DNA of 64,000 nucleotides, taken from NCBI GenBank assembly GCA_016212095.1, contig JACRHH010000018.1:3126-67125 (forward strand), given 5' to 3'. Of the stretch, positions 2,763 through 22,368 are shown one piece after another (the first letter of the stretch is position 1; each line of letters opens with the position of its first letter). The DNA comes from Nitrospirota bacterium (lineage in GTDB: Bacteria > Nitrospirota > Thermodesulfovibrionia > SZUA-242). Position numbers and translations under genes: made by a program. Under the pieces are notes generated by a model. That model made no database searches. It saw only the letters and a list, made by a program, of their open reading frames with translations, and had not been told where the DNA came from.

Positions 2763-3169
2763 ACCTTACCGGAAAGGCCGATATGGTGGAATTCCGCTGT
2801 GACGTTCCGTATCCTGTCGAGTACAAGTCCGGCAGGCAGAGGAAAGGCCGCCACGAGGAACTGCAACTCTGCGCCCAAGCGGTCTGCCTTTCGGAAATGT
2901 TCGGCGTGACGGTGGATCGCGGCGCGATATATTGGCACGGCTCGCGCGAGCGGCGGGAAGTTCCCTTCACTGACTCACTGCGTCTGGAGGTGGAACACGT
3001 TGCAGCCGCAGTGCATGAAATGATGGCGGGTTCGACGATTCCCCCGCCTGTAAACGACAAGCGATGCCGCGATTGCTCGCTCAGGGAATCGTGCCTGCCG
3101 AATGTGGTGGCGGCAAAGGGAAGAAGCCGCAAGGCTGTGCTGGAACTTTTCGAGGTGATGACGCCATGA
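2624..3169 (+). CDS. cas4: Cas4 RecB-like nuclease, 5'-truncated (first ATG at 2660; frame open from 2624)
   Basis: RecB-nuclease-type D..E.K pattern (GKADMVE...VEYKSG), QLCAQAVCLSEMFG, C-terminal Cys cluster CRDCSLRESC; the N-terminal region that normally carries the first Cys ligand is absent (in-frame stop at 2621-2623). Confidence 0.65.
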   Translation, partial: GVEQVWNENLYTMRGRDVHEHVHEESSHDLAGVRMERALPVWSRRLNLTGKADMVEFRCDVPYPVEYKSGRQRKGRHEELQLCAQAVCLSEMFGVTVDRGAIYWHGSRERREVPFTDSLRLEVEHVAAAVHEMMAGSTIPPPVNDKRCRDCSLRESCLPNVVAAKGRSRKAVLELFEVMTP

Positions 3170-4200
3170 AACAACTCCTTAACACGCTGTACGTCATGAC
3201 GCAGGGCGCGTATGTCTGCCTAGACCACGAAACGGTGAAGGTGGAGGTGGAGGGAAAAGTTCGGATGCAGGTTCCGCTTCATCACATCGGCTCGATTGTG
3301 ACGATGGGCAACGTAATGCTAAGCCCGTTTATCATGGGCCGATGCGCCGACGACGGCAGGGCGATTGTGATTCTGGGCAGAAGCGGACGCTTCAAGTGCC
3401 GTGTTGTCGGCAAGACAAGCGGCAACGTGCTTCTTCGTCATGCCCAGCACGAGGCGGTGCGCGATGGCGGGAAATCGATCCCGATTGCCCGCAACATCGT
3501 GGCCGGGAAGGTGAAAAACGCCAGACATATTCTACTGCGCGGAGCGCGCGAGGCCGACAACGCCGATGACGCAGGCGTTCTGAAAAACGCAGCCGACATT
3601 CTGGCCAATACGCTGTTTCATCTCAAGGATTGCGCCGACATCGACCGGGTGCGCGGCATAGAGGGCGAGGCGGCGAACGCCTATTTCGGCGTATTCGACC
3701 GGATGGTGAAGGAAGAAGCGCGCACGGTTTTCAGGTTCGACGGAAGAAACCGCCGTCCGCCGCTCGATCCGATGAACGCACTGCTGTCGTTTCTCTACAC
3801 GCTTTTGCTGTCCGACTGCGTAAGCGCGGCTGAAGGCGTGGGCCTCGATTCCCAGATGGGTTTTCTGCATGTGATGCGGCCCGGACGCCCGTCGCTGGGG
3901 CTGGACATGATGGAGGAATTCCGCGCCGTTCTGGCCGACAGGCTGGCGCTTACACTGATAAACCGCCGTCAGATAACGGAAAATCATTTCGAGCCAAGGC
4001 CCGGCGGCGCGGTTTACTTAAACGAAGACGGGCGCAAAACAGTTGTGACCGAATACCAGAAGCGCAAGCAGGACGAGCTTCATCATCCGCTGCTTGATGA
4101 AAAAGCGCCGTTCGGGCTTGTTCCGCACATTCAGGCCCGGCTTCTTGCGCGTCACCTTCGCGGCGACATGGATGAATATGTGCCGTTTTTGTATTCCTGA
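3166..4200 (+). CDS. cas1: Cas1 integrase (type I-C-like)
   Basis: ATGA overlap with cas4 stop; 344 aa; N-terminus [26 protein letters not shown] typical of Cas1; position cas4-cas1-cas2-array. Confidence 0.85.
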
Positions 4201-4214
4201 GCGAGGGCAAAACT

Positions 4215-4508
4215 GTGTGGGTGCTTGTATCGTATGACGTTTCCACCGAAACGCCGGAAGGCCGCAAAAGGCTCCGCCGCGTGGCGCAGATATGCAAGAA
4301 CTATGGACAGCGAGTGCAGAAATCGGTGTTCGAGTGTCAGGTGAACGAGATGAAGTTCGAGGAACTGCGGCGCGAGCTATTGCGGATTATCAATAAGGAT
4401 GAGGATAACCTGCGGCTCTATCGCCTGACGGAGCCACGGGAGCGGCATGTGGAAAGCTACGGCTTGATCAAAACGATATTGTTTGACGACGAGCCGCTGA
4501 TTGCGTAG
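4215..4508 (+). CDS. cas2: Cas2 (GTG start)
   Basis: 97 aa, [10 protein letters not shown]...[23 protein letters not shown] typical Cas2; directly after cas1 and before the repeats. Confidence 0.8.
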
Positions 4509-4598
4509 CGCGAACCTGTTGTGCATGAGAAAATGCCGGGAGGTTCGCGGATGGCGCAACAGCTTGATTATTGGAACATTTATTTGAAGCCGTCAAGC

Positions 4599-4794
4599 GT
4601 TGCGTCCGGTCGCAAGACCGGGCGAGGATTGAAACGCGGAAAGGATGGTATAACTTGCTGTAAGTTCACGCTACAACAGCGTGAGCGTCGCGCCCGGTCG
4701 CAAGACCGGGCGAGGATTGAAACCGGTCGTCTCTCTCCGCGCTGGTTATCAGGCACGGTCGCGCCCGGTCGCAAGACCGGGCGAGGATTGAAAC
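4599..4794 (+). CRISPR. CRISPR mini-array: three 37-bp repeats (4599-4635, 4687-4723, 4758-4794), spacers of 51 and 34 bp
   Basis: Consensus GTCGCGCCCGGTCGCAAGACCGGGCGAGGATTGAAAC with 9-bp stem/GCAA loop and ATTGAAAC 3' handle typical of type I-C; first repeat has 2 mismatches. Confidence 0.75.
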
Positions 4795-4805: not shown

Positions 4806-4823
4806 GCATCGCAATGCGTCTCT
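4806..4823. repeat. Partial inverted copy of the palindromic element that is tandemly repeated at 6042-6131
   Basis: GCATCGCAATGCGTCTCT matches the reverse complement of the 30-bp unit core (GACGCATCGCAATGCGTCT). Confidence 0.3.
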
Positions 4824-5343
4824 ACCTGCACGCGGCCTGCACCGTTGAGATTGGCAGAAATAGTTGCAGTGGATGATCTGGAATCGCCAGAAACCCGAAT
4901 TGCTCATAAAATCGTCCGGCTTCGTCATCCTTTGCATCGACAAAGAGGCCGATTACGCCTGCATGTCCAGCGATAAGCGATGTCCGGTGAACCGCATCGG
5001 CAAGCAGCAGTTTGCCGTACCCTTTGCCCTGTTCCTTCCGGGATACCGCAAGACGGGCAAGACGCACCGCAGGCAGACCATGCAGCGGGTATTTCCGGGC
5101 ATAATCATCAGGAAGTTGCTCGACAGACAATTCGCAGAGCGTGAGAGTGTAGAAGCCGAGCATGGCTGGCGTGCCGGCGGTCAGCACGAATGTCCGTGAA
5201 ATACCTTTCGACGAATGCTGACGCGCGATTGTCCGGAGGAACTCGTTCAGCGCCGGAACGCCGCAGTCGAAACCGTTACGGTCATGGATGCGGTCAAGAA
5301 GGGTTATTTCCGGCAATGGTTTTATTGTGCTGACGCATGGCAT
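4822..5343 (-). CDS. GNAT-family acetyltransferase toxin (TacT-like)
   Basis: 173 aa; acetyl-CoA motif RLAVSRKEQGKGYGKLL; paired with an upstream DUF1778-type gene. Confidence 0.7.
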   Translation of the reverse strand: MPCVSTIKPLPEITLLDRIHDRNGFDCGVPALNEFLRTIARQHSSKGISRTFVLTAGTPAMLGFYTLTLCELSVEQLPDDYARKYPLHGLPAVRLARLAVSRKEQGKGYGKLLLADAVHRTSLIAGHAGVIGLFVDAKDDEAGRFYEQFGFLAIPDHPLQLFLPISTVQAACR

Positions 5344-5584
5344 CCATCAGGTATTCGTTCGGTTCAGGCGGATTCTCGATGAGCGAAAACACCGCATCCG
5401 CCGAAGCGGTTGAAAGCTTGATTATGCGCTCTCCCTCAAGAATCGCATTGGCTTTCTCAAGGGCGGACTGGACGACAAACTGGTTAAGCGTTGCGCCAAC
5501 CGATTGAGCGGCTTCCAGTATCCGCTCATACACGGCTGTCGGCATACGGGCCGGTATTCGTTCCTCGGCGATTGTGCGTGCCAT
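5294..5584 (-). CDS. DUF1778-family antitoxin (TacA-like), start at the internal ATG 5584
   Basis: MARTIAEERIPARMPTAVYERILEAAQSVGATLNQFVVQSALEKANAIL; GGAGGTGA ribosome-binding site before the ATG; overlaps toxin start. Confidence 0.65.
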   Translation of the reverse strand: MARTIAEERIPARMPTAVYERILEAAQSVGATLNQFVVQSALEKANAILEGERIIKLSTASADAVFSLIENPPEPNEYLMDAMRQHNKTIAGNNPS

Positions 5585-5681
5585 TGATGTCACCTCCGGA
5601 TAGATTTTAATAAGGTGGCGCCAAAATGGCAACTTTATAATCGTTTCCGCCCGGCATATACTAGACCGTGCAAGGATCGAA

Positions 5682-6041
5682 ATGTTGAAGTCTAATTCTG
5701 ATGGCATTGTCTACTCCACCGGGCAGGGCAGAATCTGTTCCGCCTGCGGCAGGCCCGCGGCCAACTGCGAATGCGGCCGCAGGCAAGCGCCGCCAAATGG
5801 CGATGGAATCGTCCGTGTCGGCATCTCGACGAAAGGCCGCAAGGGCAAGGGTGTTACCGTGATCAGCGGCGTTCCCCCTGGCGAAGGCGGTCTCGACGAG
5901 TTGGCGCGGCGGCTCAAGCAGAAATGCGGGGCCGGAGGAACCGTGAAGGACGGCGTTATCGAAATTCAGGGCGATTTCCGCGACATCCTGGTGGCGGAAC
6001 TGACGAAACAGGGCTACAAGGTGAAACGCGCTGGCGGGTAG
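5682..6041 (+). CDS. yciH: Translation initiation factor SUI1/YciH family protein
   Basis: GKGVTVISGV...KCGAGGTVKDGVIEIQGDFRD..L...GYKVKRAGG matches the SUI1 fold signature. Confidence 0.7.
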   Translation: MLKSNSDGIVYSTGQGRICSACGRPAANCECGRRQAPPNGDGIVRVGISTKGRKGKGVTVISGVPPGEGGLDELARRLKQKCGAGGTVKDGVIEIQGDFRDILVAELTKQGYKVKRAGG

Positions 6042-6131
6042 AGACGCATTGCGATGCGTCTCTGCTGATCAAGACGCATTATGATGCGTCTCTGCTGATC
6101 AAGACGCATTATGATGCGTCTCTACTGTTCG
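6042..6131. repeat. Three tandem copies of a 30-bp unit, each containing an 8-bp-arm palindrome
   Basis: AGACGCATT(GC/AT)GATGCGTCTCTGCTGATCA x3 immediately after the yciH stop. Confidence 0.8.
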
Positions 6132-9057: not shown

Positions 9058-9336
9058 TCATCTGCTAATTGGAATAACGCCGTTTCGCATACGCAAATCG
9101 TCCAGGAGTTCTGACGGCACTTTATCGTGGGTTTTGTGGACGATTATCCGCAGGTCGCTCGAAACCCGCACAGACCAGAAGTTTTTATCCCTGGCATTGT
9201 CGGGCTTGTGGAACCGCATTCCCGAGCTGGCCGGGTTAAGTTGCAGATCGAAGGCGGTGGTCTTTGTGGCCTTCTGCTCGTCGCCGGTAAGTTTGGCGAG
9301 GCTGTCGGTGAAGGTGTCGGAGATGCGGAAGTTCAT
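9058..9336 (-). CDS. Small protein (93 aa) of unknown function; C-terminal half RelE/ParE-like by eye
   Basis: MNFRISDTFTDSLAKLTGDEQKATKTTAFDLQLNPASSGMRFHK...FWSVRVSSDLRIIVHKT; first ~43 codons duplicated at 10708-10842; no strong ribosome-binding site. Confidence 0.4.
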   Translation of the reverse strand: MNFRISDTFTDSLAKLTGDEQKATKTTAFDLQLNPASSGMRFHKPDNARDKNFWSVRVSSDLRIIVHKTHDKVPSELLDDLRMRNGVIPISR

Positions 9337-9373
9337 GTCATCGTTTTTCGAACTGATGATTTTGAAATAATTG

Positions 9374-10564
9374 TTACTGCATCCAATCGTCACCAGGCAT
9401 GATTCGATGCATAAACTCATCGAACATAGGGACTGTGAATATTGTATCGCCATGATGGGGACTCCAAACCATGCCTTTGGAGATTAACTGGCTTCTGGTC
9501 GGACCGAGAGAAGTTACTTCACGTCCCAGCTTTTCAGCAATGCCTCCTGACCGATGCGGTCCGGGGCCAAGTTCAGCCATCGCACGGAGGTATATTTTCT
9601 CTGAGGGGGTGAGTCTATCAAACCTTACACGAAAGAAACTTTCATCGAGTGCGGCTATGGCGGAGGCTGACGCGTTTTTAACGTCCTCTTCTGTGATTGG
9701 CGACGCTTCCGCTGCATCCCACGAATGCTTGCCCCATTCCTGCACAAAATAAGGGTAGCCGCGCGTCTCTTTCACAATGAGGTCTAATGCTTCAGGGGTC
9801 ACTTCGACACCCTGATCTTTCGCCGGTTTCGCAATGGCCAGTTTTGTCGATTCCGGAGTAAGCGGCCCGATATCGGGAAAGTCGAACAGCCGTTCCGCAT
9901 AAGATTTCGCTCGACCCATCCGGCCCCTCAATTGCGGTAATCCAGCACCCACGAGAACGACAGGAAGACGGCGCTGGGCGGTACGATGCAGTGAGGTGAT
10001 GAGGGCCGCGAGCTCTTCCTCCCTTACATACTGTAACTCATCAGCAAAGATCACCAAGGCCGTGCCTGCTGCTTGCGCAGCTGCTCCGGCAGCCTCCAGC
10101 AACGCCTGCAGATCATGCTCCAGATCACCGTTGTCTGCCAGTCCAGGCTCAGGATCAAAGTCAAATCCCACCTCGATGTCTTCATATTTCACTTTGAGTG
10201 ACTTGGCGAATCCCGCCAGTGCCCTGAGCGCCCTCTGGGCAAGACTCTTGGCTTTCTCATTCCGTGAAAGCCTGAGCAGTGCCTGGCGTAACTGGGGAGA
10301 TAGGAGTGCCGGTAATGAACGATTTTCAGGAGCCTCTACCCGCAATGTCTGAATGCCGGTTCCTTCCGCATCATCTCTCATTCGATCCAGCAATACTGTT
10401 TTACCTACGCCTCGAAGTCCTACCATCAGGATACTCTTTGTGGGCAGACCTCGCCGCACGCGTTCGATGGCCACGCGGACAGTTTCCCGCACATCATCCC
10501 GGCCGGCGAGTTCTGGCGGCGGCGTACCCGCACCAGGAGCAAAAGGGTTTGTTATGGGATCCAT
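9374..10564 (-). CDS. AAA+ ATPase (ORC1/Cdc6-like)
   Basis: Walker A GLRGVGKT, Walker B VIFADELQ, 396 aa. Confidence 0.65.
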   Translation of the reverse strand: MDPITNPFAPGAGTPPPELAGRDDVRETVRVAIERVRRGLPTKSILMVGLRGVGKTVLLDRMRDDAEGTGIQTLRVEAPENRSLPALLSPQLRQALLRLSRNEKAKSLAQRALRALAGFAKSLKVKYEDIEVGFDFDPEPGLADNGDLEHDLQALLEAAGAAAQAAGTALVIFADELQYVREEELAALITSLHRTAQRRLPVVLVGAGLPQLRGRMGRAKSYAERLFDFPDIGPLTPESTKLAIAKPAKDQGVEVTPEALDLIVKETRGYPYFVQEWGKHSWDAAEASPITEEDVKNASASAIAALDESFFRVRFDRLTPSEKIYLRAMAELGPGPHRSGGIAEKLGREVTSLGPTRSQLISKGMVWSPHHGDTIFTVPMFDEFMHRIMPGDDWMQ

Positions 10565-10707
10565 CGAAGAATTATACCAAAATTAGCAAGTTTATAAAAC
10601 AAACATAAACCTGATAAATTTACTCAAATTAAACCCGCCTGATTTTGTTCAATAAAATGATACCCTAAAAACCTTCATCACCTCATCCCCCCCAATGAGT
10701 TATTTAC

Positions 10708-10842
10708 TCATCGGTAGAACCGCATTCCCGGACTGGCCGGGTTCAGTTGCAGATAGAAGGCGGTGGTCTTTGCGGCCTTCTGCTCGTCGCCGGTCAGTTT
10801 GACGAGGCTGTCGGTGAAGGTGTCGGAGATGCGGAAGTTCAT
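10708..10842 (-). pseudogene. Truncated paralog fragment of the 9058-9336 gene (first 44 codons then stop)
   Basis: About 130 bp nearly identical to 9199-9336 starting exactly at the ATG; followed by a relic resembling the 3' end of the methyltransferase gene. Confidence 0.45.
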
Positions 10843-10861
10843 GTGACAGCCAAGCAGCAAG

Positions 10862-11698
10862 TTACTCAGCCAATACTGGCTGTTGTGGATCGGCACCGAG
10901 GCTGATGTGATCCAGACGCCACTTCTTCAACGCCTTCGATTGGCGATAACTCATGGCTTCCTCGGAAATTACATCAACGTATCGAAGTTCTATTCCCTGC
11001 CAGTTGCCTGTTTCAGCGTTAAACAGCCTTGCCCTGAAAGCTTGTTCGATTTCAGCTTGCGCTTGATTGGCGGCGGCTTCCGCAGCATAAAAATCAGGCT
11101 CGGTCGTATGAAGGAGCGTTACGTCAAGCACATAAACATCATCAAGTCCTTCGTGGCATATCTCTTGCCCCTCGTCAACATCGAAAAATACAGCGGTAAT
11201 CATTTTGCCATGCGGTTTTACGGCTTTGGCAATCTTGTCTGATAACTTTGCGGCACTCAAGCGACGCTCAAATTCGTTCGGGAATGCAGATCGACGGTAT
11301 CGTGATGCCAGCCAAAGTTGAAAAGTAACAAGTTCCGAAGGAGAAAGCCGGGAATCATTATCTGGTGTAAAGTCTATGAGCGACTCTTTGAGAATGCTGC
11401 GTTTTTCTGCGGAAACAAATTCAGCCAGCAACGGCTTGTTGCCTTCGAACTCCAAATGGAGCGTCCGTGGCGATTTCGCATGTGTATTCAGGCCATTAAG
11501 TTTCTGAATCCGATACCCAACAATTACCTCTACATGTGGTTCCCTATCTGGGAGTTGGGTTAAATCGCAGTGATGAGTTGCAACGATAACCACCGTATCG
11601 CCGGGATGTGTCGGATGTATCAGACCAAGTGCTGCTACAGATTCACTTGCAAGCAAATGTCCTTGCCGCCATGGCGTATCCCTCGTCCATTCCGGCAT
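10862..11698 (-). CDS. Hypothetical protein, 278 aa, no recognisable motifs
   Basis: Long ORF co-directional with neighbours; visibly AT-richer than flanking genes. Confidence 0.45.
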   Translation of the reverse strand: MPEWTRDTPWRQGHLLASESVAALGLIHPTHPGDTVVIVATHHCDLTQLPDREPHVEVIVGYRIQKLNGLNTHAKSPRTLHLEFEGNKPLLAEFVSAEKRSILKESLIDFTPDNDSRLSPSELVTFQLWLASRYRRSAFPNEFERRLSAAKLSDKIAKAVKPHGKMITAVFFDVDEGQEICHEGLDDVYVLDVTLLHTTEPDFYAAEAAANQAQAEIEQAFRARLFNAETGNWQGIELRYVDVISEEAMSYRQSKALKKWRLDHISLGADPQQPVLAE

Positions 11699-11703
11699 GG
11701 CGG

Positions 11704-12378
11704 CTACTGCACCACGTCGTTTTCTGCCATCAGATCGGAATCGGCAGAGCTTTGAGACATTTTACGGTTGGCAAAACGCGCATCAAGGCGTTCTCTTTGA
11801 CTTGTCTCCTGTTCGACAATCTGGCGGAGTAACTGCGCGGCATCACGGGCCGATCCACCATCTTGAATCATCTCGAAAATATTCCTGCCATTGAATACCT
11901 TGCGTTTCAATAGAGCCCCATTAACCGGAATTCCTGCTTCGGCAAACATGTCAGCCGCAACTGCAAGTTCGCTCATCTTGGCTAAATGCTCGGGTGTGGG
12001 TTGCTCCCCCCTCAACCAGTTGTAAATTGTCTGGCGTGATACGTTAAAGGCCTTGGCGAGATCGGATATAGCAGGGGAAAGGACTTTGCGAATTTGCTCC
12101 ATGTCCTCGGCAGGTGTTCTTGCGGATACTGCCTTTACAGCGTTAGAACGTATGAAACCGGATGATAGTAACTCATTATTTCGATGAAGCTGCAACCGGC
12201 CAAGATCGTCTGCAAAAGCACCCGTTCCTTGGGCAACCAGCAATCCAGCCGTAAATAAAGCAACCTTTGACAAGCTGCATACACATGAAGAAGCGCCAGT
12301 TGAATATGGTCGATCATTAAACCATCCACCTTGCCTGGAATATCCCGCTTCCATTCTGTAATCTCCTGTTATTCCCAT
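11704..12378 (-). CDS. XRE-family helix-turn-helix protein (true start possibly the ATG at 12102, giving 133 aa)
   Basis: HTH segment LSPAISDLAKAFNVSRQTIYNWLRG; the upstream part of the ORF may be non-coding. Confidence 0.5.
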   Translation of the reverse strand: MGITGDYRMEAGYSRQGGWFNDRPYSTGASSCVCSLSKVALFTAGLLVAQGTGAFADDLGRLQLHRNNELLSSGFIRSNAVKAVSARTPAEDMEQIRKVLSPAISDLAKAFNVSRQTIYNWLRGEQPTPEHLAKMSELAVAADMFAEAGIPVNGALLKRKVFNGRNIFEMIQDGGSARDAAQLLRQIVEQETSQRERLDARFANRKMSQSSADSDLMAENDVVQ

Positions 12379-13163
12379 GAATTAAGGGCAAATTGCGTGA
12401 CTGTTGCCCGAAACGATTTCTCGATTTCAACGTGAAGCGCAACCAGTCTGGAAGCAATTGTTTCAAGGCTGAAGGCCTCGCGTTGTGCATAAAATGCATC
12501 GGAATCAATTATTGCGTGACGGCCTTCCTGCGCGGTAAATCGTGGATGTATCTGCGGTGCAAACGGAATTATTTCCTGTGGCAGTCCGACCCGGCCATCT
12601 TGAATAATTACCCGCGATACAAGTTGTCCACTTGCGTTAATAGTGACTGTTTCACTGTATGTATGTGCCAGTTTGCCGTCAAGCTTATGCGAAAGCCCTA
12701 ACACTTCTTGTGCAAGGTAGTCAGAAAACGACTCATCGGGTTTTGGCAGCACGGCATCAAAATAACGCAGCCCAACACGCTCGGTAAAATCAAGTCGCAC
12801 AACGTCATGAATAGTGCCCAATCCATCCAGCAGCGTCTTGAAAAACGTCTCGGAAGTGTCATAATCGGTTGTCTGAAGAGCCAGCGCGTTATGTTCCAGA
12901 ACAAACTCTGTGGTGCGATTAATATTTCCGAAAACGCAACGAGCCTGAGGAATGAATGACGGTTTTGGGGCCTGACTTCCGTCACTTGGCGAGCCAAATT
13001 GCAAGACGATTTTTTGAATTGTTTCCTGTTTAAAATCCGGAAAGTGTGCAGCCCTCATCCGTTCCTGAATGGTTGGCAAATACCCCTCCATTTGAAGAAC
13101 AGGATTGAACTGAACTTGTGCCACAGTAAAGTAGACCGGCGCGTTTTTCATTTTCTTGCCCAT
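12369..13163 (-). CDS. Hypothetical protein, 264 aa (tentatively TIGR04255-like)
   Basis: ATG with GGAGG ribosome-binding site; N-terminus MGKKMKNAPVYFTVAQVQFNP; family assignment is from memory only. Confidence 0.45.
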   Translation of the reverse strand: MGKKMKNAPVYFTVAQVQFNPVLQMEGYLPTIQERMRAAHFPDFKQETIQKIVLQFGSPSDGSQAPKPSFIPQARCVFGNINRTTEFVLEHNALALQTTDYDTSETFFKTLLDGLGTIHDVVRLDFTERVGLRYFDAVLPKPDESFSDYLAQEVLGLSHKLDGKLAHTYSETVTINASGQLVSRVIIQDGRVGLPQEIIPFAPQIHPRFTAQEGRHAIIDSDAFYAQREAFSLETIASRLVALHVEIEKSFRATVTQFALNSWE

Positions 13164-13182
13164 AATAGTCCTCCACTACAGC

Positions 13183-13223
13183 GGTTTACACTGAGGTTTA
13201 CACTTTACACCCAAGTTGACACT
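13183..13223. promoter_or_regulatory. Iterated direct repeats TT(T/G)ACAC upstream of the 264-aa gene
   Basis: GGTTTACACT at 13183-13192 and 13195-13204, TTTACAC 13204-13210, TTGACACT 13216-13223, just upstream of the ribosome-binding site on the minus strand. Confidence 0.3.
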
Positions 13224-13270
13224 ATTGCAAACAATGAACATCCACACCGTTGATGCGCCTCAAATTCCAG

Positions 13271-16057
13271 TTACACCCGAAACACCTTCATAACCTCATC
13301 CCCCAAATGATTAATCACCTTCACCGCAATCCGCCCGGTTTTCGGCTTTTCAAATGGTCGCGATGTGTCGCTATTCAGCGTAGCCCAGGCGTCTTCGTTG
13401 ATCTCGGCTTTGAGAGTGGTTTTCAGCGCCTTGTACGGGTCGTTTGCTCCAAGGAAGTAGGCGTGGCGGACGAAGAAGCTTTCTTCATTATAATCTGTGT
13501 CGATGAACCAGCAGGCTATTCCTTCGGCGCCGTCGCTGCGGACTTCGCCGGTGTTGGGGTGGAACACGTCCACGCCGTTGACTTTGACCCGCACTTGTCC
13601 GTCTTCGGCATCGAGAATATCAATATCCGGCTCGCCGAAGATGACGAAGAGGTTGCCCTTGCCGGTGTTCTTGAGGTCGTCTGCCATGTGTAGGTCGGCG
13701 TTCATGCGAGCCTTGAGCACGGGGATGCGGCCAAGTTTGTTGAATTCCGACGAATGGGCGTCGTAGTTGAAGGCGCAGGTGATCAGCGCGTCGAAACCGG
13801 CGTCGCCGGCCTCGCGGGCGGCGGCCACCAGATCGGGGCGGGAGACTGTGCCGAATTCGGGGCCGATGAAGATGGCGGCGCGTTTTTCACCGCCAGCATC
13901 CGCAAAGCGTCCTTCGGCGCAGATAAGATAGCCCGGCCAAGGGGTTAGCGCTGTGAAGATGACTTTATCTTCCTTGTGCGCCTGTTGAACCCCGGCTGTC
14001 TTGAGGTTTTCCAGAATCATCTGTACGAAGTTCCGCTCCGTGCCGTAGCCTTCCTTCGGTTCCGCCACGGTGTCGATCAATTCGTCGTCCACTCCCACAG
14101 CCAGAACCCGGTGCGGCAACAGGCTCTCCACGGTGAACGGCCCGGCAACGCGAACACTTTTCTTGTCGTCGTAGGGTTTATCGTAGAGATATTCAAACTC
14201 GGCCTTGGCGGCGATGGATGCGTCGATTGCCTTTTGCCGGGCGATGCGTTGCCGCCACCAGTCGGCGTGCAGCTTCTTCGCCGCCTCCGGCCATTTTTCG
14301 TCGGCCTCGCGGGGAATTTCCCACTCCTGCCAATTTTTACCGAGTGACTGGTTAAGCTGCTGGCGCAATGGCTCCAGCGTCTGTTGGAACTTTTCCCAGA
14401 TAACGTCGATTTCGGCGTTGTTGGCGATGGATTTTAGGGTGATGTGCGGCACGCGCTCATAAACAAAGCCCTGCCGGATGTCGCCACGAGTGGGCTGGGT
14501 CGACGGCAAGGTTCGGGTGATCTCGGCTTCCTTGCGTTGGCCGTCGGGCGAGTCAGCCAGCAGATAGAAAGGGTAGCGCGCTCCCATGATCCGGGCACGG
14601 GCCAGCGCCAAAGCAACGCGCGAGGTGTCGATGGTGATCCAGCGGCGGCCCCACTGTTCAGCTACATAAGCAGTAGTGCCTGAACCGCAGGTTGGGTCGA
14701 GAACCAAGTCGCCGGGGTCGGTCGCCAAAAGAATGCAGCGCGCAATGACCTTCTGGCCTGTTTGAACAACGTATGTCTTGTCCTCGGAAAATCCGGTCAT
14801 CTTTACGTCGTTCCAATAGTTTGCAATTGGAACAACTTCGAAGTCTTTCAAAAATCGTTTGTACATGAGAGATTTGCCAATTGGCCTTAAACGCCCAGTT
14901 TTCGCAAGCTGCGTCAGGCCCTTGGCATCGGTCTTAAACGTGCCCTTGCCAGGAGAAAAAGCTACACCGTTGTAGATAAAAGACGTGACGTCGGTTCCTT
15001 GTGCTGGTCGCTGGCTGGTCAAGTTGTCACAAGCAAAAACTTTCGTCTTATCTATGTTGCCGCCGTTTCCTTCTATCTCACTAGAATTAAGCCGTCGATC
15101 TACGCCATCGCCTTCATCAAACCAAGTGTATTGGGTAGTTCCCGCTTCGCCTAGGACTTTGAGTCGAAATGGTGGTCTAAATTTGAGTGCCGCACGATCT
15201 TTGGCAAACCAAAGGATGTAATCACTAATCGAAGCAAGGCCTTCTGTCGAGGTGCTGCTCGTTTTCTCGAATGAGATTTCTGACACAAAATTCTCCTCCC
15301 CAAACACCTCATCCATCACCGCCCTCACCCGATGAACATTCTCATCCCCAATCTGCACAAAGATCGACCCGGAATCCGTCAATAAATCCCGTGCCACAGT
15401 AAGACGGTCACGCAGATAAGTCAGATACGAATGAATCCCATCCCGCCAAGTATCGCGGAACGCCTTGACCTGTTCCGGCTCGCGGGTGATGTGGCCGACG
15501 TTGCCATCCTTCACGTCGCGGCTGGTGGTGCTCCACTGAAAGTTGGAGTTGAACTTGATGCCGTAGGGCGGATCAAAGTAGATGCACTGCACCTTGCCGC
15601 GCAGACCTTCGCGCTCGGCCAGCGATGCCATGACCTGGAGGCTGTCGCCAAGGATCATGCGGTTGGCCCAATGGGCGTCGTGCTGGTAAAACTCGGTCTT
15701 GGCGCTCTCGCTTGGGAGCCCGTTGAAGTCGGCGAAGAGGTCAGGCTGAACCTGCCTGCTCTTTTCCTCACGGGTTTGACGCAACAGGTCATCGATCAAC
15801 ACCTTGGGGTGAACCTTCTCCTGAATGTAGAGAGGCGGGGCATGGACTACCAGATCAGACCAATCCTTTTCGTCCTTGCCGCGCCAGACGAGCTGTGGGT
15901 CGAGGTCGCGGTTGCGGCGTTCGTAGGCAACTCGCACCGGGCTTTTGTCCGCATCGTGCATTATCGACTGATGCTCGGCGGTGGGAATGTTCTTGCGTGT
16001 CGCGTCCTCGTGGGTGAGGGTTTCGACGGTGAGTGGGGTAATTGGTCTGTTGGCCAT
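13271..16057 (-). CDS. DNA methyltransferase, beta-class (Type III Mod-like), 928 aa
   Basis: Motif IV IYFDPPYG precedes motif I DPTCGSGTT; NRMILGDSLQVMASL resembles the Mod N-terminal region; long C-terminal extension. Confidence 0.75.
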   Translation of the reverse strand: MANRPITPLTVETLTHEDATRKNIPTAEHQSIMHDADKSPVRVAYERRNRDLDPQLVWRGKDEKDWSDLVVHAPPLYIQEKVHPKVLIDDLLRQTREEKSRQVQPDLFADFNGLPSESAKTEFYQHDAHWANRMILGDSLQVMASLAEREGLRGKVQCIYFDPPYGIKFNSNFQWSTTSRDVKDGNVGHITREPEQVKAFRDTWRDGIHSYLTYLRDRLTVARDLLTDSGSIFVQIGDENVHRVRAVMDEVFGEENFVSEISFEKTSSTSTEGLASISDYILWFAKDRAALKFRPPFRLKVLGEAGTTQYTWFDEGDGVDRRLNSSEIEGNGGNIDKTKVFACDNLTSQRPAQGTDVTSFIYNGVAFSPGKGTFKTDAKGLTQLAKTGRLRPIGKSLMYKRFLKDFEVVPIANYWNDVKMTGFSEDKTYVVQTGQKVIARCILLATDPGDLVLDPTCGSGTTAYVAEQWGRRWITIDTSRVALALARARIMGARYPFYLLADSPDGQRKEAEITRTLPSTQPTRGDIRQGFVYERVPHITLKSIANNAEIDVIWEKFQQTLEPLRQQLNQSLGKNWQEWEIPREADEKWPEAAKKLHADWWRQRIARQKAIDASIAAKAEFEYLYDKPYDDKKSVRVAGPFTVESLLPHRVLAVGVDDELIDTVAEPKEGYGTERNFVQMILENLKTAGVQQAHKEDKVIFTALTPWPGYLICAEGRFADAGGEKRAAIFIGPEFGTVSRPDLVAAAREAGDAGFDALITCAFNYDAHSSEFNKLGRIPVLKARMNADLHMADDLKNTGKGNLFVIFGEPDIDILDAEDGQVRVKVNGVDVFHPNTGEVRSDGAEGIACWFIDTDYNEESFFVRHAYFLGANDPYKALKTTLKAEINEDAWATLNSDTSRPFEKPKTGRIAVKVINHLGDEVMKVFRV

Positions 16058-16058
16058 G

Positions 16059-17147
16059 CTATCGACTGCCTTCCATCATGGATTCCTTGGTCAAAATCGC
16101 ATTCAGCGCGAGGTTGATGTAGTAGTTTGTGCGCCCCTTTTTCTGCTTTTGGAGAAAGCCGCCCTGTGTCAAGGTGTCGAGATACTTGGTGGCGGTTAGC
16201 CGCGAAACTTTGAGATCACGTTCGACAAACTCGATTTTGGTGTAGGGGTGGGTAAAGAGGTTGTTGATCAAATCCTGACTGTAAAATTTGTATTGCGCAC
16301 GGATGCGGTGCTTGGCATCCATCAACGCTGCCTTGATGGCATGAATGGTTTCTATGGTATCGGTGGCGGTGGACTCTATGGCTGTGAGCATGTAAAGCGC
16401 CCACTCTTCCCAAGTGTTCTGTTCACGCACCGATTGCAGCAGGCGGTAATAGTCCGGCTTGGTGCGGACGATGTAGCGGCTGAGGTAGAGCACGGGAATG
16501 TCGAGCAGGCCTTCCTTGACCAGATAGAGGACGTTTATAATGCGCCCGGTGCGGCCATTGCCATCGTAGAACGGGTGAATGCTTTCAAACTGGTGATGGA
16601 TAAGCGCCATTTTGATGAGAGGGTCGGCTGCGAATAGCTCGCTATCGTTCATGAAGCGTTCCAGATCACGCATGAGTGCGACTATGGCTTCCGGTTCCTG
16701 CGGCGGTGTATAAACCGTCTGACCGGCGCCATTTTTTAGCGCAGTGCCTGGCAGCTTGCGGAATCCGGCGTTGTTCTGTTCCAGTTCGGCCTGTATCTGG
16801 ATGATGTGGTTGGCGGTGAGCAGTCCACTTCGGCGAACCTGTTCATACCCTACCCGCAGAGCCTGACGGTAGCGCAGCACCTCCTTGGCGGACGGGCTGG
16901 CCAGGTTTTCGGGAAAGAGATCATCCTGAAACAGCTCATCATGGGTGGTGACGATGTTCTCGATAGCGGAACTGTCCTTGGCCTCCTGCATACCAAGTGT
17001 GCTGATGAGAACGCCCTGATTGGGGATTGAAGCGGCCACCCCTTTGAGTTCGGCCAGTTTGCGGCTGGCTAATGTCAGCTTTTTGAGGATGGCTGGGGTA
17101 TCGAAGCGCTCGGTCGGCAGTTGTTCCAACGGCTGCATGGTGGTCAT
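16059..17147 (-). CDS. Fic/Doc-family protein
   Basis: Fic motif HPFYDGNGRTGR; 362 aa; sits between the res and mod genes. Confidence 0.8.
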   Translation of the reverse strand: MTTMQPLEQLPTERFDTPAILKKLTLASRKLAELKGVAASIPNQGVLISTLGMQEAKDSSAIENIVTTHDELFQDDLFPENLASPSAKEVLRYRQALRVGYEQVRRSGLLTANHIIQIQAELEQNNAGFRKLPGTALKNGAGQTVYTPPQEPEAIVALMRDLERFMNDSELFAADPLIKMALIHHQFESIHPFYDGNGRTGRIINVLYLVKEGLLDIPVLYLSRYIVRTKPDYYRLLQSVREQNTWEEWALYMLTAIESTATDTIETIHAIKAALMDAKHRIRAQYKFYSQDLINNLFTHPYTKIEFVERDLKVSRLTATKYLDTLTQGGFLQKQKKGRTNYYINLALNAILTKESMMEGSR

Positions 17148-17168
17148 TACCCCCCTCCTTCTTGAACA

Positions 17169-17202
17169 ATATGCATAGAAAAGAGACGTTTTCTATACAT
17201 AT
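17169..17202. promoter_or_regulatory. 14-bp-arm inverted repeat (operator-like) between res and fic
   Basis: ATATGCATAGAAAA-gagacg-TTTTCTATACATAT, one mismatch; lies just upstream of the fic ribosome-binding site. Confidence 0.4.
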
Positions 17203-17250
17203 TGCCTGCTTCATGTATACAACAGGGCAAAACAGTATGCATTACAGGTT

Positions 17251-20200
17251 TCATCGCAACTCTCCCCATTCCCCCTTCACGATATTTCCGATCATCTTGT
17301 CAAACTCCGCCGCTACCTTGGCATCGAAGTCGGACTCCATGCGGTAAACCTCGGTAAACTCGGCAAAGGCCCATCGGCCATAGCTTTTCAGGTTATTAAC
17401 GCCGGGAACCCAGTAGGTTTCCATGGTGGCCTTTTTCTCCTTGGCGTCCTCGCGGCGGTAGCCCTTGATCTCGACGATCAGGCGCAGCGGGTCATCTTCG
17501 CCATGTCCGTCGTCAACCAGAACGATGAAGTCGGGGATGTATTTCCGCGTTTCCGAGCCGTAACGGTATGGAACCTCAAGGCCAAGATTGTGATTTTTGA
17601 CGTAGGCTTTCACTTTGGGGTGCGCTTCGGCCACCCGGCAGAATTCGGCTTCCCAATCGCTGTCGAGGATAATCCAGTTGATCTGACAGCGGCGGGCGTC
17701 AGTCTCCCATCGATCCTTTTTGGATGTGTTAAAATTCACATGGATGGTGGAGCCGACGGGATTGTAGGGATCGAGTACCGCCTTAATGGGGCTTCCGCCG
17801 ATATGTTCACGGTTGATTCCCGCCATAATACGCTCGCAGGCCATGTCAGCAAGCATCTTGTATTTAAGCTGGGCCGGATATGTTTTCCCCGTGCAAACAA
17901 GGTAGTTATCAAGCCATTGTCTGGCAATGCGCTTTATCTGTCCGAATAGATGAAGCTGTGGTTCTCCGTTAGCATCACGCCACCTTGTCAAAAGAAGGTG
18001 TGAAGTTAATTCATAGACAACCTGTGAGTGTCTTATATCTCCCGTATGAACGAGGTTAAGATCAACCGATGCACCAATGATCCCGGAATTTCTGGTCTCT
18101 GTTGCACCAACCAGGTCGGGGGTCAACTCCATCACAGAGTCATCGTTGAACTTTGCGCTCAGCCGTTCCTCTGGAAGTTCGACGCGATAGCCTGCAACGC
18201 GGGGAAAGCGAATTTCGAGTGGATCTCGATCAGGTCGAACAGCCTTGACTTGAATGGTCTCGCGCGGAGGCTGAGGCGGCGCTATCACCGGCTTCGCGGT
18301 GAAGTCGAAGGGAATACCCAGCACATCGGCATATTCCACGTTGAACAGCCCTTCCTCATTCAGATCGTAAGACTGGCGGCGAAGCGCCCGGCCAATGACC
18401 TGCTCGCACAGAAGCTGAGTGCCGAAGGCGCGAACGCCCAAGACATGTGTCACGGTGCTGGCATCCCAACCCTCGGTAAGCATGGAGACAGAGACGACGC
18501 AGCGTATCGCTCCGCCCAACTGGCCGGGCTTGCCCACTGTATTCATAACCTCGCGGAGAAGAGTCACGTCATCGAGTTGTTTCCCTTGTTGCATTTCATC
18601 GGCGAGCTTTCCCCCGCGTTCTACGATCTCGCGGCGGAAGCGTTCAATCTCATCAGCAGCCATGCTGCGGAAGCTATCGTCGAGCGCTTCACCGGATTCG
18701 AGTTGCTCGCTGTCAATGAGTAGTGTGTTTGGACGAGCAAGCGGATTGCCGTGTTCATCGGTATTGCGGAACAACGGCAAACGGCCAAATTCGAGCTGGC
18801 TTGTGCCGTCCTTGTTCTGCCGTTGAAACCCGGAGATATAATCGTACACCAGCTTGGAGGTGGAGGTGTTATTGCAGACAATAATGAAACATGGCGGCAC
18901 CTTAATTCCACTCTGCTGCCAAAGGTTGTAAGTTTTTTCGTAATGCCCATAGAGCGCTTCCAGTGCGGTTTGCAATTGTGGCGGCAGGTCAAGCGGGTTC
19001 AGGGCCTCGGTCTTCCCGCGCCCCTTTTTCGGCATCTTTGTACGAATGTGTTCCCAGAGGTTGCGAAACATCGGCATTTCGCCGCCGGGGATGTTGTCGG
19101 CCACCGGCACGCGCGGGAGCTTTACGATGCCGCATTCGATGGCGTCCATAAGCGAAAAGTCGCTCATTGTCCAGGGGAACAGAGTTCCTTCGGCATAGCC
19201 GGAGCCGCTCAGGAAAAACGGGGTTGCCGACAAGTCGATTACGCGAGCAAGCCCAAGCGTCCGGTTTACGATTTCAATGCCTGAAATCCAGAGCCGGGCC
19301 GCTTCGTTGTTCTTTTCGGCTTCCTTCTTCTCGTCGCCGGTCAGGTTCTCATCTTTGGCGTTATGGTTTGGTTTCTCACGGTAGCAATGGTGCGCCTCGT
19401 CGTTCAACACCATGATGTTCTTCAACCCCATCAGGCCGGGCATCACCCGCTGAATCATCTGCCCTTCGGTTTCCAGTGTGTCAAGCTCCCCGCCGCCGCG
19501 CCCTTGCAGCAACAGGCGGCCACCCTTTGACAACTCCATCCGTTCGCGCAGCTTGAAGGCATGGTAATTGGTTATGACGATTTTTGCCTTTTGCAGTTCA
19601 TCCAGCATGTCGCCTGGTATAAGCTCCCGGCTTTGGTAGTAGCTGTCAGGATCGTTGGGCTGAAGCACCCGAAGCCTGTCGCGGATGGTCAAACCGGGGG
19701 TGACGACCAGAAATCCCCGCGTAAACCGCTTGCTGGTTGGCCGACGCACCGCATTTATGGTTTGCCACGCAATCAGCATCGCCATGACCGTGGTTTTGCC
19801 CGCGCCGGTAGCAAGTTTCAGCGCCAGACGCATCAACTCCGGGTTGGCGTCGTTGTTTGCGTTGGCCAGATGCTCAAGGAAGCGTTTCTTGTGTTTATCG
19901 ACATTTGGGGCAACTTCGGTAAGCCAGATGGCGGTTTCAACAGCCTCGATCTGACAAAAAAACGGACGGATGCCATTGAACTGATGATGTCGCCAATGCT
20001 TTAGCAATCGCTCTGTTTCCGGAGAAACATGCCAGTCTTTCGGATTTTTGAGGCTGCGCCACTGATCAACGTGTTGACGCAGTTCATTTATGATGGAAGT
20101 GGCATCATACTGCTGCCCCTCTGTTGAAAGCCCCAAACCTTCATCAAAGACGAAACGCGGCTGTTCAGCGGCAACCTTGCGCTTCTTCGGCTTGGGTATT

Positions 20201-20433
20201 GGCGTGATGAATTCAGCCCGGCGGCGTTTTTCGATGATCTGCTGGGTCGGCTGCCCTGATGAATCAAGCTCCCAATGGCGAAGCGGATACCCGTATGGGG
20301 AATTAAGGATCGGCTGTTCGAAAAAGCGGTTATTCATTGACAGGAGAGCCTCCCGGTTGCCAACAGGTATTTTTTCTGAAACATTCCGTGATTCCGGACA
20401 AAACGATGTTGAAGATTGCCGTTTTTCCCTCAT
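17251..20433 (-). CDS. Type III restriction enzyme Res-like subunit: SF2 helicase with C-terminal PD-(D/E)xK nuclease
   Basis: Motif I LATGAGKTT, motif II VLNDEAHH, motif VI QVIGRALRR, C-terminal PDFIVLV...LIVEIKG. Confidence 0.7.
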   Translation of the reverse strand: MREKRQSSTSFCPESRNVSEKIPVGNREALLSMNNRFFEQPILNSPYGYPLRHWELDSSGQPTQQIIEKRRRAEFITPIPKPKKRKVAAEQPRFVFDEGLGLSTEGQQYDATSIINELRQHVDQWRSLKNPKDWHVSPETERLLKHWRHHQFNGIRPFFCQIEAVETAIWLTEVAPNVDKHKKRFLEHLANANNDANPELMRLALKLATGAGKTTVMAMLIAWQTINAVRRPTSKRFTRGFLVVTPGLTIRDRLRVLQPNDPDSYYQSRELIPGDMLDELQKAKIVITNYHAFKLRERMELSKGGRLLLQGRGGGELDTLETEGQMIQRVMPGLMGLKNIMVLNDEAHHCYREKPNHNAKDENLTGDEKKEAEKNNEAARLWISGIEIVNRTLGLARVIDLSATPFFLSGSGYAEGTLFPWTMSDFSLMDAIECGIVKLPRVPVADNIPGGEMPMFRNLWEHIRTKMPKKGRGKTEALNPLDLPPQLQTALEALYGHYEKTYNLWQQSGIKVPPCFIIVCNNTSTSKLVYDYISGFQRQNKDGTSQLEFGRLPLFRNTDEHGNPLARPNTLLIDSEQLESGEALDDSFRSMAADEIERFRREIVERGGKLADEMQQGKQLDDVTLLREVMNTVGKPGQLGGAIRCVVSVSMLTEGWDASTVTHVLGVRAFGTQLLCEQVIGRALRRQSYDLNEEGLFNVEYADVLGIPFDFTAKPVIAPPQPPRETIQVKAVRPDRDPLEIRFPRVAGYRVELPEERLSAKFNDDSVMELTPDLVGATETRNSGIIGASVDLNLVHTGDIRHSQVVYELTSHLLLTRWRDANGEPQLHLFGQIKRIARQWLDNYLVCTGKTYPAQLKYKMLADMACERIMAGINREHIGGSPIKAVLDPYNPVGSTIHVNFNTSKKDRWETDARRCQINWIILDSDWEAEFCRVAEAHPKVKAYVKNHNLGLEVPYRYGSETRKYIPDFIVLVDDGHGEDDPLRLIVEIKGYRREDAKEKKATMETYWVPGVNNLKSYGRWAFAEFTEVYRMESDFDAKVAAEFDKMIGNIVKGEWGELR

Positions 20434-22283: not shown

Positions 22284-22368
22284 TGGTGCGAGGGGGGGGA
22301 CTCGAACCCCCACGGTGTTAGCCGCCAGATCCTAAGTCTGGTGCGTCTGCCAGTTCCGCCACTCTCGC
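22284..22368 (-). tRNA. tRNA-Leu (anticodon UAG), 85 nt
   Basis: Reverse complement reads GCGAGAGTGGCGGAA...CAGACTTAGGATCTG...long variable arm...GGGGGTTCGAGTCCCCC...CTCGCACCA with anticodon loop CUUAGGA and encoded CCA. Confidence 0.85.

What the first reader, a model, noticed from the sequence alone, without database searches (positions are those of the whole stretch)
10650..10710. Relic of a methyltransferase 3' end fused to the truncated gene copy
Immediately after the premature stop of copy B, the minus strand encodes ..IGGDEVMKVFRV, nearly identical to the last residues of the Mod methyltransferase (..INHLGDEVMKVFRV, 13271-13315), with about 80 percent DNA identity over roughly 45 bp. 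An N-terminal fragment of one gene is therefore joined to a C-terminal fragment of a Mod-like gene, implying a large internal deletion or cassette exchange between two RM-like loci.
Basis: seen in the sequence. Interest (0 to 1): 0.45.

Follow-up and report, generated by a model that had tools for sequence, protein, structure and literature searches.

The report
Leftover methyltransferase tail marking gene insertion
A roughly 50-base non-functional leftover of a second DNA-methyltransferase gene marks where a widely travelling ATPase gene, carrying scraps of its former neighbours, was spliced into the helicase gene of a restriction-modification defence locus; this is an ordinary recombination scar, though an informative one.

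Summary
Minus strand 10661-10690 encodes GDEVMKVFRV, the invariant C-terminus of this Mod family. It matches the resident mod tail at 26/30 nt, and all four differences are synonymous. It is the best match to the relic anywhere in the window.

The relic is a scar, not a gene. In 80 related loci the layout is res-mod-[0-5 kb of defence cargo]-UvrD-like helicase. The window's 264/224/278-aa genes plus the helicase form one such conserved block elsewhere. The AAA_16 ATPase downstream of the relic sits as mod-ATPase-helicase in other loci. It also occurs alone in many phyla at 76-100% identity. Three Verrucomicrobia loci carry it with a 37-codon mod tail. Others keep helicase stubs after it.

So a segment (mod' tail, ATPase promoter, ATPase, helicase' head) was joined to codon 44 of the resident helicase. 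That left two helicase 5' stubs, 93.8% identical, and no intact helicase.

The likeliest mechanism is recombination anchored in helicase homology with an illegitimate left joint. Deletion between tandem loci and the reverse polarity remain possible. The junction rests on a single metagenome assembly. The scar is a new example of a known kind, comparable to Rhs and T6SS displacement arrays.

The parts
10661..10690 (-). Core of the relic: ten codons GDEVMKVFRV of a second Mod gene (mod')
   Evidence: 26/30 nt identical to the mod tail at 13274-13303, with all 4 differences synonymous. The peptide is the invariant C-terminus of 73 Mod tails from other loci.
10658..10707 (-). Whole confident relic: decayed VINHL codons with indels, the core, and the former stop codon now reading TCA
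   Evidence: Gapped alignments to the mod tails of the window, L034, L093 and L104. The frame is broken by an extra C and by extra G bases in the G run.
10708..10716 (-). Junction zone: the last bases of the helicase stub, including its TGA stop at 10710-10708, joined to the relic. The bases taccgatga may be further decayed mod' sequence.
   Evidence: The copy A / copy B homology ends at ttc(t/c)ac, position 10714. The alignment to L034 suggests ta-ccg-tga corresponds to atagccgtgaag, but it needs several indels. Microhomology could not be settled.
10714..10842 (-). Copy B: 5' stub (43-44 codons) of the resident UvrD-like helicase, in its native place after the 278-aa gene
   Evidence: tblastn with the L091 helicase matches residues 1-47. 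The end of the 278-aa gene and the spacer align with L089 and L091. The stub carries D30Y and H43Y at conserved positions.
10631..10657 (-). Spacer that followed the mod' stop in the donor arrangement
   Evidence: gaaca..ggcgg.ttt is shared with the spacer after the intact mod of L082, and the spacing is the same as in L169.
10565..10630 (-). Conserved upstream block of the ATPase gene, starting at TTTGA, with a promoter-like site
   Evidence: Conserved in 81 ATPase loci from about -72 to the ATG. TTTATA, a 16-nt spacer and TG-TATAAT lie at 10598-10571, and the -10 element ends 6 nt before the ATG.
9374..10564 (-). AAA_16 (Orc1/Cdc6-like) ATPase, the imported cargo gene
   Evidence: Pfam AAA_16 at 1e-18. 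Found at 76-100% identity in many phyla, mostly as a solitary gene.
9121..9336 (-). Copy A: 5' stub (about 72 codons) of a helicase that follows the ATPase. It then diverges into unrelated sequence, with a stop at 9058-9060.
   Evidence: tblastn matches helicase residues 1-69. The spacer and start align with ATPase-helicase loci L003, L034, L064 and L174. No further helicase sequence exists anywhere in the window.
10862..13163 (-). Resident cargo block: 264-aa TIGR04255 protein, 224-aa HTH protein and 278-aa protein
   Evidence: The same three genes followed by an intact 690-aa helicase occur in L089, L091 and L092. In one ENA contig they follow res and mod.
13271..16057 (-). Resident intact Type III-like Mod methyltransferase, whose tail is the relic's counterpart
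   Evidence: Pfam N6_N4_Mtase, and PADLOC MTase_III PDLC03632 at 1448 bits.
16059..20433 (-). SoFic-like Fic gene (16059-17147) and the Res subunit (17251-20433) of the same locus
   Evidence: PADLOC SoFic at 2e-116. NCBIfam BPTD_3080 family restriction endonuclease at 1367 bits.

Best explanation
The 10658-10707 stretch is a dead recombination scar: the last 15 or so codons of a different allele of the same Mod family (mod').

Shown. Loci of this family have the layout res, mod, a variable slot of 0-5 kb of defence genes, then a UvrD-like helicase. The window's resident version carried the 264/224/278-aa genes in that slot, followed by the helicase. The AAA_16 ATPase occupies the same slot in other loci, as mod-ATPase-helicase.

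Inferred. A DNA segment from such a locus was joined to codon 44 of the resident helicase. The segment consisted of the mod' tail, a spacer, the ATPase promoter and gene, and the head of helicase'. Its right side most likely recombined through the near-identical helicase 5' sequence. This could have happened by one-ended, homology-facilitated illegitimate recombination, or by a single crossover of a circularised fragment. The left side was joined illegitimately, which duplicated the helicase head and stranded the mod' tail.

The relic has no function of its own. It has since picked up indels and lost its stop codon. The helicase is now represented only by two stubs, so the locus has lost its third core gene. 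The ATPase keeps its own promoter.
For: 1. The relic is real, and its four differences from the resident tail are all synonymous. It therefore diverged as a working gene before it was truncated.
2. Relic, spacer, TTTGA block and ATPase are collinear with intact mod-to-ATPase junctions in L034, L082 and L169.
3. The ATPase carries a 37-codon mod tail with no mod gene in L051, L063 and L065. Helicase stubs or scraps follow it in L009, L018, L020 and L075. It is solitary in about 75 of 88 loci, so it is the piece that moves with scraps of its flanks.
4. The 264-224-278-helicase block is conserved in L089, L091 and L092, and sits behind res-mod in an ENA contig. Copy B is therefore the resident helicase head in its native place.
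5. Among 80 Mod loci, the helicase follows mod directly in 15 and after cargo in 39. The cargo consists of defence genes.
6. The pattern 'helicase stub, then cargo, then helicase' recurs with different breakpoints in L003-5, L150, L171 and L156.
7. Copies A and B are 93.8% identical over 129 nt, and their first 40 nt are identical. Fifty-eight other helicase heads average 73.4%, and 0 of 1653 pairs reach 93.8%. That is enough homology to anchor recombination.
Against: 1. The helicase after copy A is itself cut off at about codon 72. A homology-anchored insertion therefore needs a second, later deletion. Alternatively the segment went in by two illegitimate joints.
2. No clean microhomology is visible at the left joint, and 6-9 nt remain unassigned.
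3. Polarity rests on comparative behaviour, not on a sister genome that lacks the insertion.
4. Synonymous-site identity is not raised next to the slot, so there is no sign of frequent homologous exchange across the whole family.
5. The junction is seen in one metagenome-assembled contig only. L173 ends inside copy B, and the stub peptide is not on record elsewhere.
Confidence: 0.62

Rival explanations
1. Reverse polarity. The resident locus was res-Fic-mod-ATPase-helicase. The incoming DNA was mod''-264-224-278-helicase''(1-44), anchored by homology in mod. Its right end was joined illegitimately 15 codons before the resident mod stop. On this reading the relic is the original tail of the resident mod, and the present tail came in with the three-gene block.
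For: The structure is symmetrical, so this produces exactly the same junction. mod-ATPase-helicase exists as a native arrangement (L034). L093 is the closest relative of the window's Res (88%) and of the Mod C-terminus (97%), and its tail matches the relic at 29/30 nt; it differs from the present window tail at 3 nt. The three-gene block has the lowest G+C of the island, 0.48-0.49.
Against: Only the ATPase is seen elsewhere carrying mod tails and helicase stubs. The three-gene block is always seen with an intact helicase. The window and L093 mod genes differ at many, mostly synonymous, sites along the aligned 3' region (last ~1 kb), with no visible breakpoint near the 3' end. A 30-nt comparison has little resolving power.
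Confidence: 0.15
2. In-place deletion. Two complete, related loci once stood in tandem: res-mod-264-224-278-helicase, then res'-mod'-ATPase-helicase'. One illegitimate deletion of about 8 kb removed everything from helicase codon 45 to 15 codons before the mod' stop.
For: A single event yields the observed joint. Defence islands do hold several RM systems. The two helicase heads are unusually alike, as paralogous neighbours could be.
Against: It needs an unobserved second locus. Stub-plus-cargo patterns in L003-5, L150 and L171 have no mod relic after the stub and sit in front of an intact helicase, which points to insertion rather than deletion between tandem systems. The ATPase demonstrably moves with a mod tail into places that have no RM locus (L051, L063, L065).
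Confidence: 0.12
3. Assembly artefact. The contig is a chimera of two strain variants of the locus, joined wrongly by the metagenome assembler.
For: The source is a metagenome-assembled genome. The 131-nt helicase repeat breaks other assemblies: L173 ends inside it. No independent contig covers the joint.
Against: A repeat-induced chimera would switch within shared sequence. Here the joint links helicase codon 44 to a mod tail, and the two share at most a 6-mer. The same architecture (stub, cargo, helicase) occurs in independent assemblies (L003, L004, L005, L150, L171).
Confidence: 0.05
4. The similarity is chance, or the stretch is a functional element kept by selection, such as a small ORF or a regulatory site for the ATPase.
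For: The region is short, and it lies just upstream of a promoter-like site.
Against: None of 19,878 window segments and none of 20,000 shuffles reaches the score. Conservation upstream of the ATPase in 81 loci starts only at TTTGA, downstream of the relic. The relic has frameshifts and no start codon.
Confidence: 0.02

Closest known systems
Displaced gene fragments in Rhs, CDI and T6SS effector-immunity arrays (C-terminal displacement; Kirchberger et al. 2017, PMC5361080, which proposes homology-facilitated illegitimate recombination)
   Same: A conserved anchor gene flanks a variable module. New modules arrive by horizontal transfer, old pieces are pushed aside rather than removed, and truncated fragments of the anchor or the neighbouring gene are left between modules. 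Clean replacement by double homologous recombination is assumed to be commoner and leaves no scar.
   Different: Here the anchors are a methyltransferase tail and a helicase head of a restriction-modification-like locus. The stranded pieces are a 3' tail and 5' stubs rather than orphan toxin tips and immunity genes. Nothing suggests the stranded pieces keep a function.
Homology-facilitated illegitimate recombination in naturally transformable bacteria (de Vries & Wackernagel 2002; Prudhomme et al. 2002; Meier & Wackernagel 2003, as cited in PMC5361080 and PMC3240628)
   Same: One end of the foreign DNA is anchored by homology, here the helicase head (93.8% identical, first 40 nt identical). 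The other end is joined without homology.
   Different: The classic outcome is an insertion with a deletion next to the anchor. Here part of the anchor is duplicated, which fits a single crossover of a circularised fragment at least as well. No microhomology could be shown, and no experiment exists for this organism.
Defence genes embedded in restriction-modification operons and defence-island hotspots, such as PrrC/RloC-type genes inside hsd loci and cargo hotspots flanked by core genes (my own knowledge; not tested here)
   Same: A variable slot flanked by conserved genes holds GmrSD, SIR2, HerA, reverse transcriptase, HamA, ABC-3C, Fic and AAA_15/21 genes.
   Different: The slot lies between mod and a helicase of a BPTD_3080-type Type III-like system. 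I found no paper describing this layout.
Integron gene cassettes
   Same: Single promoter-proximal genes are stacked one after another at a fixed slot.
   Different: The island has no integrase and no attC-like site. Breakpoints vary from 20 to 72 codons of the helicase and from 15 to 37 codons of mod. The ATPase carries its own promoter.

Membership tests
Type III-like Mod methyltransferase (N6_N4_Mtase; PADLOC MTase_III PDLC03632), 3' end | Encodes the family's invariant C-terminal motif VINHLGDEVMKVF[RK]V directly before the stop codon | tested here: met
   GDEVMKVFRV is intact at 10661-10690, and VINHL is recognisable with indels at 10691-10707. The motif is present in 73 tails of L093-L172.
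Type III-like Mod methyltransferase (as a gene) | Complete open reading frame with the methyltransferase domain | tested here: not met
   Only about 15 codons remain. tblastn with the 928-aa Mod finds only the gene at 13274-16057 in the window. The relic is a fragment, not a second mod gene.
Relic derived from a separate functional allele rather than a recent local copy | Differences from the resident tail are synonymous, and the variant codons occur in working alleles elsewhere | tested here: met
   4 of 4 differences are synonymous (P about 0.0024). L093 and L136 match the relic at 29/30, and 20 of 73 foreign tails match at 26/30 or better.
Displacement or stacking scar at a cargo slot (Rhs/CDI/T6SS-like) | Conserved flanking genes with variable content between them in related loci | tested here: met
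   15 loci have mod and helicase adjacent, and 39 have 0.3-5 kb of diverse cargo between them.
Displacement or stacking scar at a cargo slot (Rhs/CDI/T6SS-like) | Truncated copies of the flanking genes lie between successive modules, recurrently and with different breakpoints | tested here: met
   Window: a 44-codon stub plus a 15-codon mod tail. L003-5: 24-26 codons. L150: about 70. L171: about 40-46. L156: two stubs. L051, L063 and L065: 37-codon mod tails.
Homology-facilitated illegitimate recombination | Sufficient homology at one end | tested here: met
   Copies A and B are 93.8% identical over 129 nt, with a 40-nt identical run.
Homology-facilitated illegitimate recombination | Microhomology of a few bases at the illegitimate joint | tested here: inconclusive
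   tgcggt occurs both in the helicase and in mod tails, but the observed joint carries 6-9 extra bases of unclear origin.
Homology-facilitated illegitimate recombination | Demonstrated uptake and one-ended integration in the organism | not testable with these tools
   The organism is an uncultured Nitrospirota metagenome-assembled genome.
Integron cassette or other site-specific insertion | Recombinase nearby and fixed recombination sites at the cassette ends | tested here: not met
   No integrase between 9058 and 20433. The breakpoints vary. ATPase conservation ends at its stop codon with no shared downstream site.
Insertion sequence or transposon insertion | Transposase, terminal inverted repeats and a target-site duplication | tested here: not met
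   No transposase in 9058-13270. The only long direct repeat is the 131-nt helicase head, and no terminal inverted repeats flank the ATPase.

The most novel reading that the evidence does not exclude
The BPTD_3080-type res-mod-helicase locus is a widespread three-gene defence core with a dedicated cargo slot between mod and the helicase, and a second slot between res and mod. Defence genes are swapped and stacked across phyla by recombination that uses the conserved mod tail and helicase head as handles. The window captures a rare imprecise event of that traffic. The AAA_16 ATPase, with its portable and probably leaderless promoter, is a pan-phylum passenger of this slot.
Probability: 0.4. Interest if true: 0.6.

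Novelty: new member of a known kind. Interest (0 to 1): 0.38.

Why it matters
By itself the relic does nothing. Its value is as a dated fingerprint. It shows that the ATPase gene reached this locus from another locus of the same restriction-modification family, and it shows which neighbours it had there.

It also exposes a slot between mod and a helicase where very different defence genes are exchanged. Imprecise exchanges there leave stubs, as in toxin-immunity arrays. In this genome the event cost the system its helicase.

For annotation, the two helicase stubs and the mod tail should be marked as pseudogene fragments, not as small genes.

Tried and rejected
1. A shared ancestral 'helicase stub plus relic' upstream of the ATPase in the Nitrospirae locus L001. 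The resemblance around ACCGATGAG is at chance level: score 19, reached by 701 of 2000 shuffles.
2. The UvrD-like ORF at window 148-1907 (+) as the missing body of the helicase. It is unrelated, with only a 30% local match. No other helicase piece exists in the window.
3. Near-identical DNA in E. coli genomes or in plasmids: none found.
4. Exact-protein look-ups of the ATPase, the M16 peptidase and the 44-aa stub, to find sister contigs or independent coverage of the joint: nothing on record.
5. A breakpoint in mod against its closest relative, L093: differences, mostly at synonymous sites, are spread along the aligned 3' region with no breakpoint near the 3' end, so this was uninformative.
6. 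Raised synonymous-site identity next to the slot, as a sign of recurrent homologous exchange: not seen. Values were 0.38-0.51 in the mod tail region against 0.27-0.46 elsewhere, and 0.36-0.37 in the helicase head against 0.30-0.35.
7. A stable hairpin in the ATPase upstream block: z = -1.0, not significant.
8. Whether the roughly 55 nt between the stub and the ATPase block in L003-5 is a diverged mod tail (IESIKIGDKKDIVDFI): not convincing, left open.
9. MANTIS/Gao_RL as the system's identity: the gene set differs, and PADLOC gives MTase_III instead.
10. Literature on BPTD_3080 or on a mod-helicase hotspot: nothing found.

Full report
**Observation**

On the minus strand the truncated 'copy B' ends at a TGA stop (10710-10708). 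The next bases read gtaaataactcattggg ggg gat gag gtg atg aag gtt ttt agg gta tca.

The repeat finder pairs 10662-10691 with the 3' end of the 928-aa Mod gene (13275-13304) at 27/30 nt. A gapped local alignment of the two 71-nt regions scores 28. The maximum for 19,878 random window segments is 17, and for 20,000 shuffles it is 23. The mod tail is the best match to the relic in the whole window, on either strand.

In register, the ten codons GDEVMKVFRV (10661-10690) differ from the mod tail at four bases, and all four differences are synonymous. Only 22% of single changes there would be synonymous, so the chance of four out of four is about 0.0024. The relic therefore diverged from the resident tail while both were parts of working genes. 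It is not a decayed recent copy.

After truncation it gained indels in the VINHL codons, and its stop codon changed to TCA.

**Surroundings**

Read on the minus strand, the island holds these genes:
- Res, of the BPTD_3080 family (20433-17251)
- a SoFic-like Fic gene (17147-16059)
- Mod (16057-13271)
- a 264-aa TIGR04255 protein (13163-12369)
- a 224-aa helix-turn-helix protein (12378-11704)
- a 278-aa protein (11698-10862)
- copy B
- the relic
- an AAA_16 ATPase (10564-9374)
- copy A

M16 peptidase genes lie on one side of the island. DUF2064 and glycosyltransferase genes and a tRNA-Leu lie on the other.

Copies A and B are the first 72 and 44 codons of a UvrD-like helicase. No other part of that helicase is present in the window.

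**What the two halves are elsewhere**

The 278-aa protein has homologues that sit in a conserved block: 264 aa, about 214 aa, 278 aa, then an intact 690-aa helicase (L089, L091, L092). In one ENA contig the block lies directly behind res and mod. The end of the 278-aa gene and the short spacer before copy B align with those loci. Copy B is therefore the resident helicase head in its native place.

The ATPase is very widespread. It is 76-100% identical in Nitrospirota, Acidobacteriota, Verrucomicrobiota, Planctomycetota, Proteobacteria, Gemmatimonadota, Deinococcales and other groups. It is usually a lone gene in unrelated surroundings.

In a minority of loci it keeps informative neighbours:
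- mod-ATPase-helicase in L034
- mod-ATPase in L082 and L169
- ATPase-helicase in L003-5, L064 and L174
- a 37-codon mod tail with no mod gene in L051, L063 and L065
- helicase stubs or scraps after the ATPase in L009, L018, L020 and L075

The window's order of relic, about 27 nt of spacer, TTTGA-initiated upstream block and ATPase is collinear with the intact junctions of L082 and L169. Across 81 loci, conservation upstream of the ATPase begins only at that TTTGA, about 72 nt before the start codon, and it ends at the stop codon. The relic is therefore not part of the ATPase's own conserved unit.

**The wider locus type**

Eighty metagenome loci were found with the Mod C-terminus. The helicase begins 3-22 nt after the mod stop in 15 of them, and after a gap of 0.3-5 kb in 39. 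Three loci have only stubs. Most of the remainder are too short to judge.

The gaps hold AAA_15/AAA_21 ATPases, GmrSD, SIR2, HerA, reverse transcriptases, HamA, ABC-3C components, Fic, PIN and others. The family thus has a defence-cargo slot between mod and the helicase.

Stubs of the helicase head in front of further cargo and an intact helicase recur in L003-5, L150, L171 and L156, each with a different breakpoint.

**Mechanism**

The window combines two versions of the same slot: '...278-helicase(1-44)' and 'mod'(last 15 codons)-ATPase-helicase'(1-72)'. That much is shown by the sequence comparisons above.

What follows is inferred. The simplest account is that a fragment from a mod'-ATPase-helicase' locus entered the resident helicase.

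Copies A and B are 93.8% identical over 129 nt, and their first 40 nt are identical. Fifty-eight other helicase heads average 73.4%, and none of 1653 pairs reaches that value. Donor and recipient were therefore close enough for recombination to anchor in the helicase head.

The left joint has no homology. This matches homology-facilitated illegitimate recombination, or a single crossover of a circularised fragment. Both are known routes by which displaced fragments accumulate in Rhs, CDI and T6SS arrays (PMC5361080; PMC3240628).

Five of the eight A/B differences are nonsynonymous. Copy B carries D30Y and H43Y at conserved sites, as expected for decaying stubs.

**Open points**

- The helicase after copy A is cut at about codon 72, so a second event or two illegitimate joints are needed.
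- The polarity could be reversed, with the three-gene block as the incoming DNA and the relic as the resident's old tail.
- A deletion between two tandem loci gives the same joint.
- The junction rests on one metagenome assembly.
- Tests for a mod breakpoint, for raised synonymous identity at the slot edges and for a shared relic in L001 were negative or uninformative.

**Comparison and novelty**

The relic passes the test for a Mod-family 3' end, fails the test for a gene, and fits the features of a displacement scar. It does not fit integron or transposon insertion: there is no recombinase, there are no end sites, and the breakpoints vary.

It is a new example of a known kind of feature.

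The layout with a cargo slot between mod and a helicase, and the pan-phylum ATPase, may be undescribed. I found no paper on either. Both go beyond the finding itself and were only surveyed here.

Noticed in passing
window 9374-10636 (-); loci L001-L088: The 396-aa AAA_16/Orc1-Cdc6-like ATPase is 76-100% identical across at least ten phyla. It usually travels as a lone gene with a conserved upstream block of about 72 nt. Its TG-extended TATAAT ends 6 nt before the ATG, which suggests a leaderless, host-independent transcript. How it moves is unknown.
   Followed up: partly
L093-L172 (mod-to-helicase interval): BPTD_3080-type res-mod loci carry a UvrD-like helicase as a third conserved gene. A hypervariable slot between mod and the helicase holds GmrSD, SIR2, HerA, reverse transcriptase, HamA, ABC-3C, Fic, PIN and AAA_15/21 genes. 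The slot is empty in 15 loci and filled in 39.
   Followed up: partly
window 16059-17147 (-); L093, L095, L099, L107, L114, L116, L137: A second variable slot appears to lie between res and mod. SoFic fills it in the window. Other loci have gaps of 0.9-1.9 kb there, while res and mod are adjacent in L094 and L100.
   Followed up: no
L150 10338-10450; L171 11380-11490; L156 2600-2730: In three loci the helicase stubs are followed by three or four copies of a GCGATCAGCCG-like motif, placed just before the start of a DUF4143-type ATPase gene (MPRTTKTFRRYLA...). This could be an operator array or the end of an element.
   Followed up: no
window 9058-9120 (-): Copy A leaves the helicase frame after IVHKTHD and runs 20 unrelated codons to a stop. 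The edge of the island next to the M16 peptidase genes lies here. No repeat of the tRNA-Leu gene (22284-22368) was found at this end.
   Followed up: partly
window 148-1907 (+): A different UvrD-family helicase is split into two ORFs (148-630 and 657-1907), probably by a frameshift. A RhuM-family gene follows at 1923-2762.
   Followed up: no
window 2660-4794 (+): An ORF at 2660-3169 (not scanned; possibly cas4), then cas1 (3064-4200, Pfam Cas_Cas1) and an ORF at 4215-4508 (not scanned; possibly cas2) are followed by a minimal array of three 37-40-nt repeats (4596-4635, 4684-4723, 4755-4794). No effector genes are in view.
   Followed up: partly
window 6042-6127: A 30-nt unit is repeated 2.9 times in tandem just upstream of the first M16 peptidase gene. 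Each unit contains a short palindrome (AGACGCATTATGATGCGTCT).
   Followed up: no
window 4822-5707 (-): Two overlapping ORFs (4822-5343 and 5294-5707, minus strand) sit between the CRISPR repeats and an ORF at 5682-6041. By eye they resemble a GNAT toxin and a DUF1778-like antitoxin, and the neighbouring ORF resembles a SUI1-like gene; none of the three was scanned against any library.
   Followed up: no
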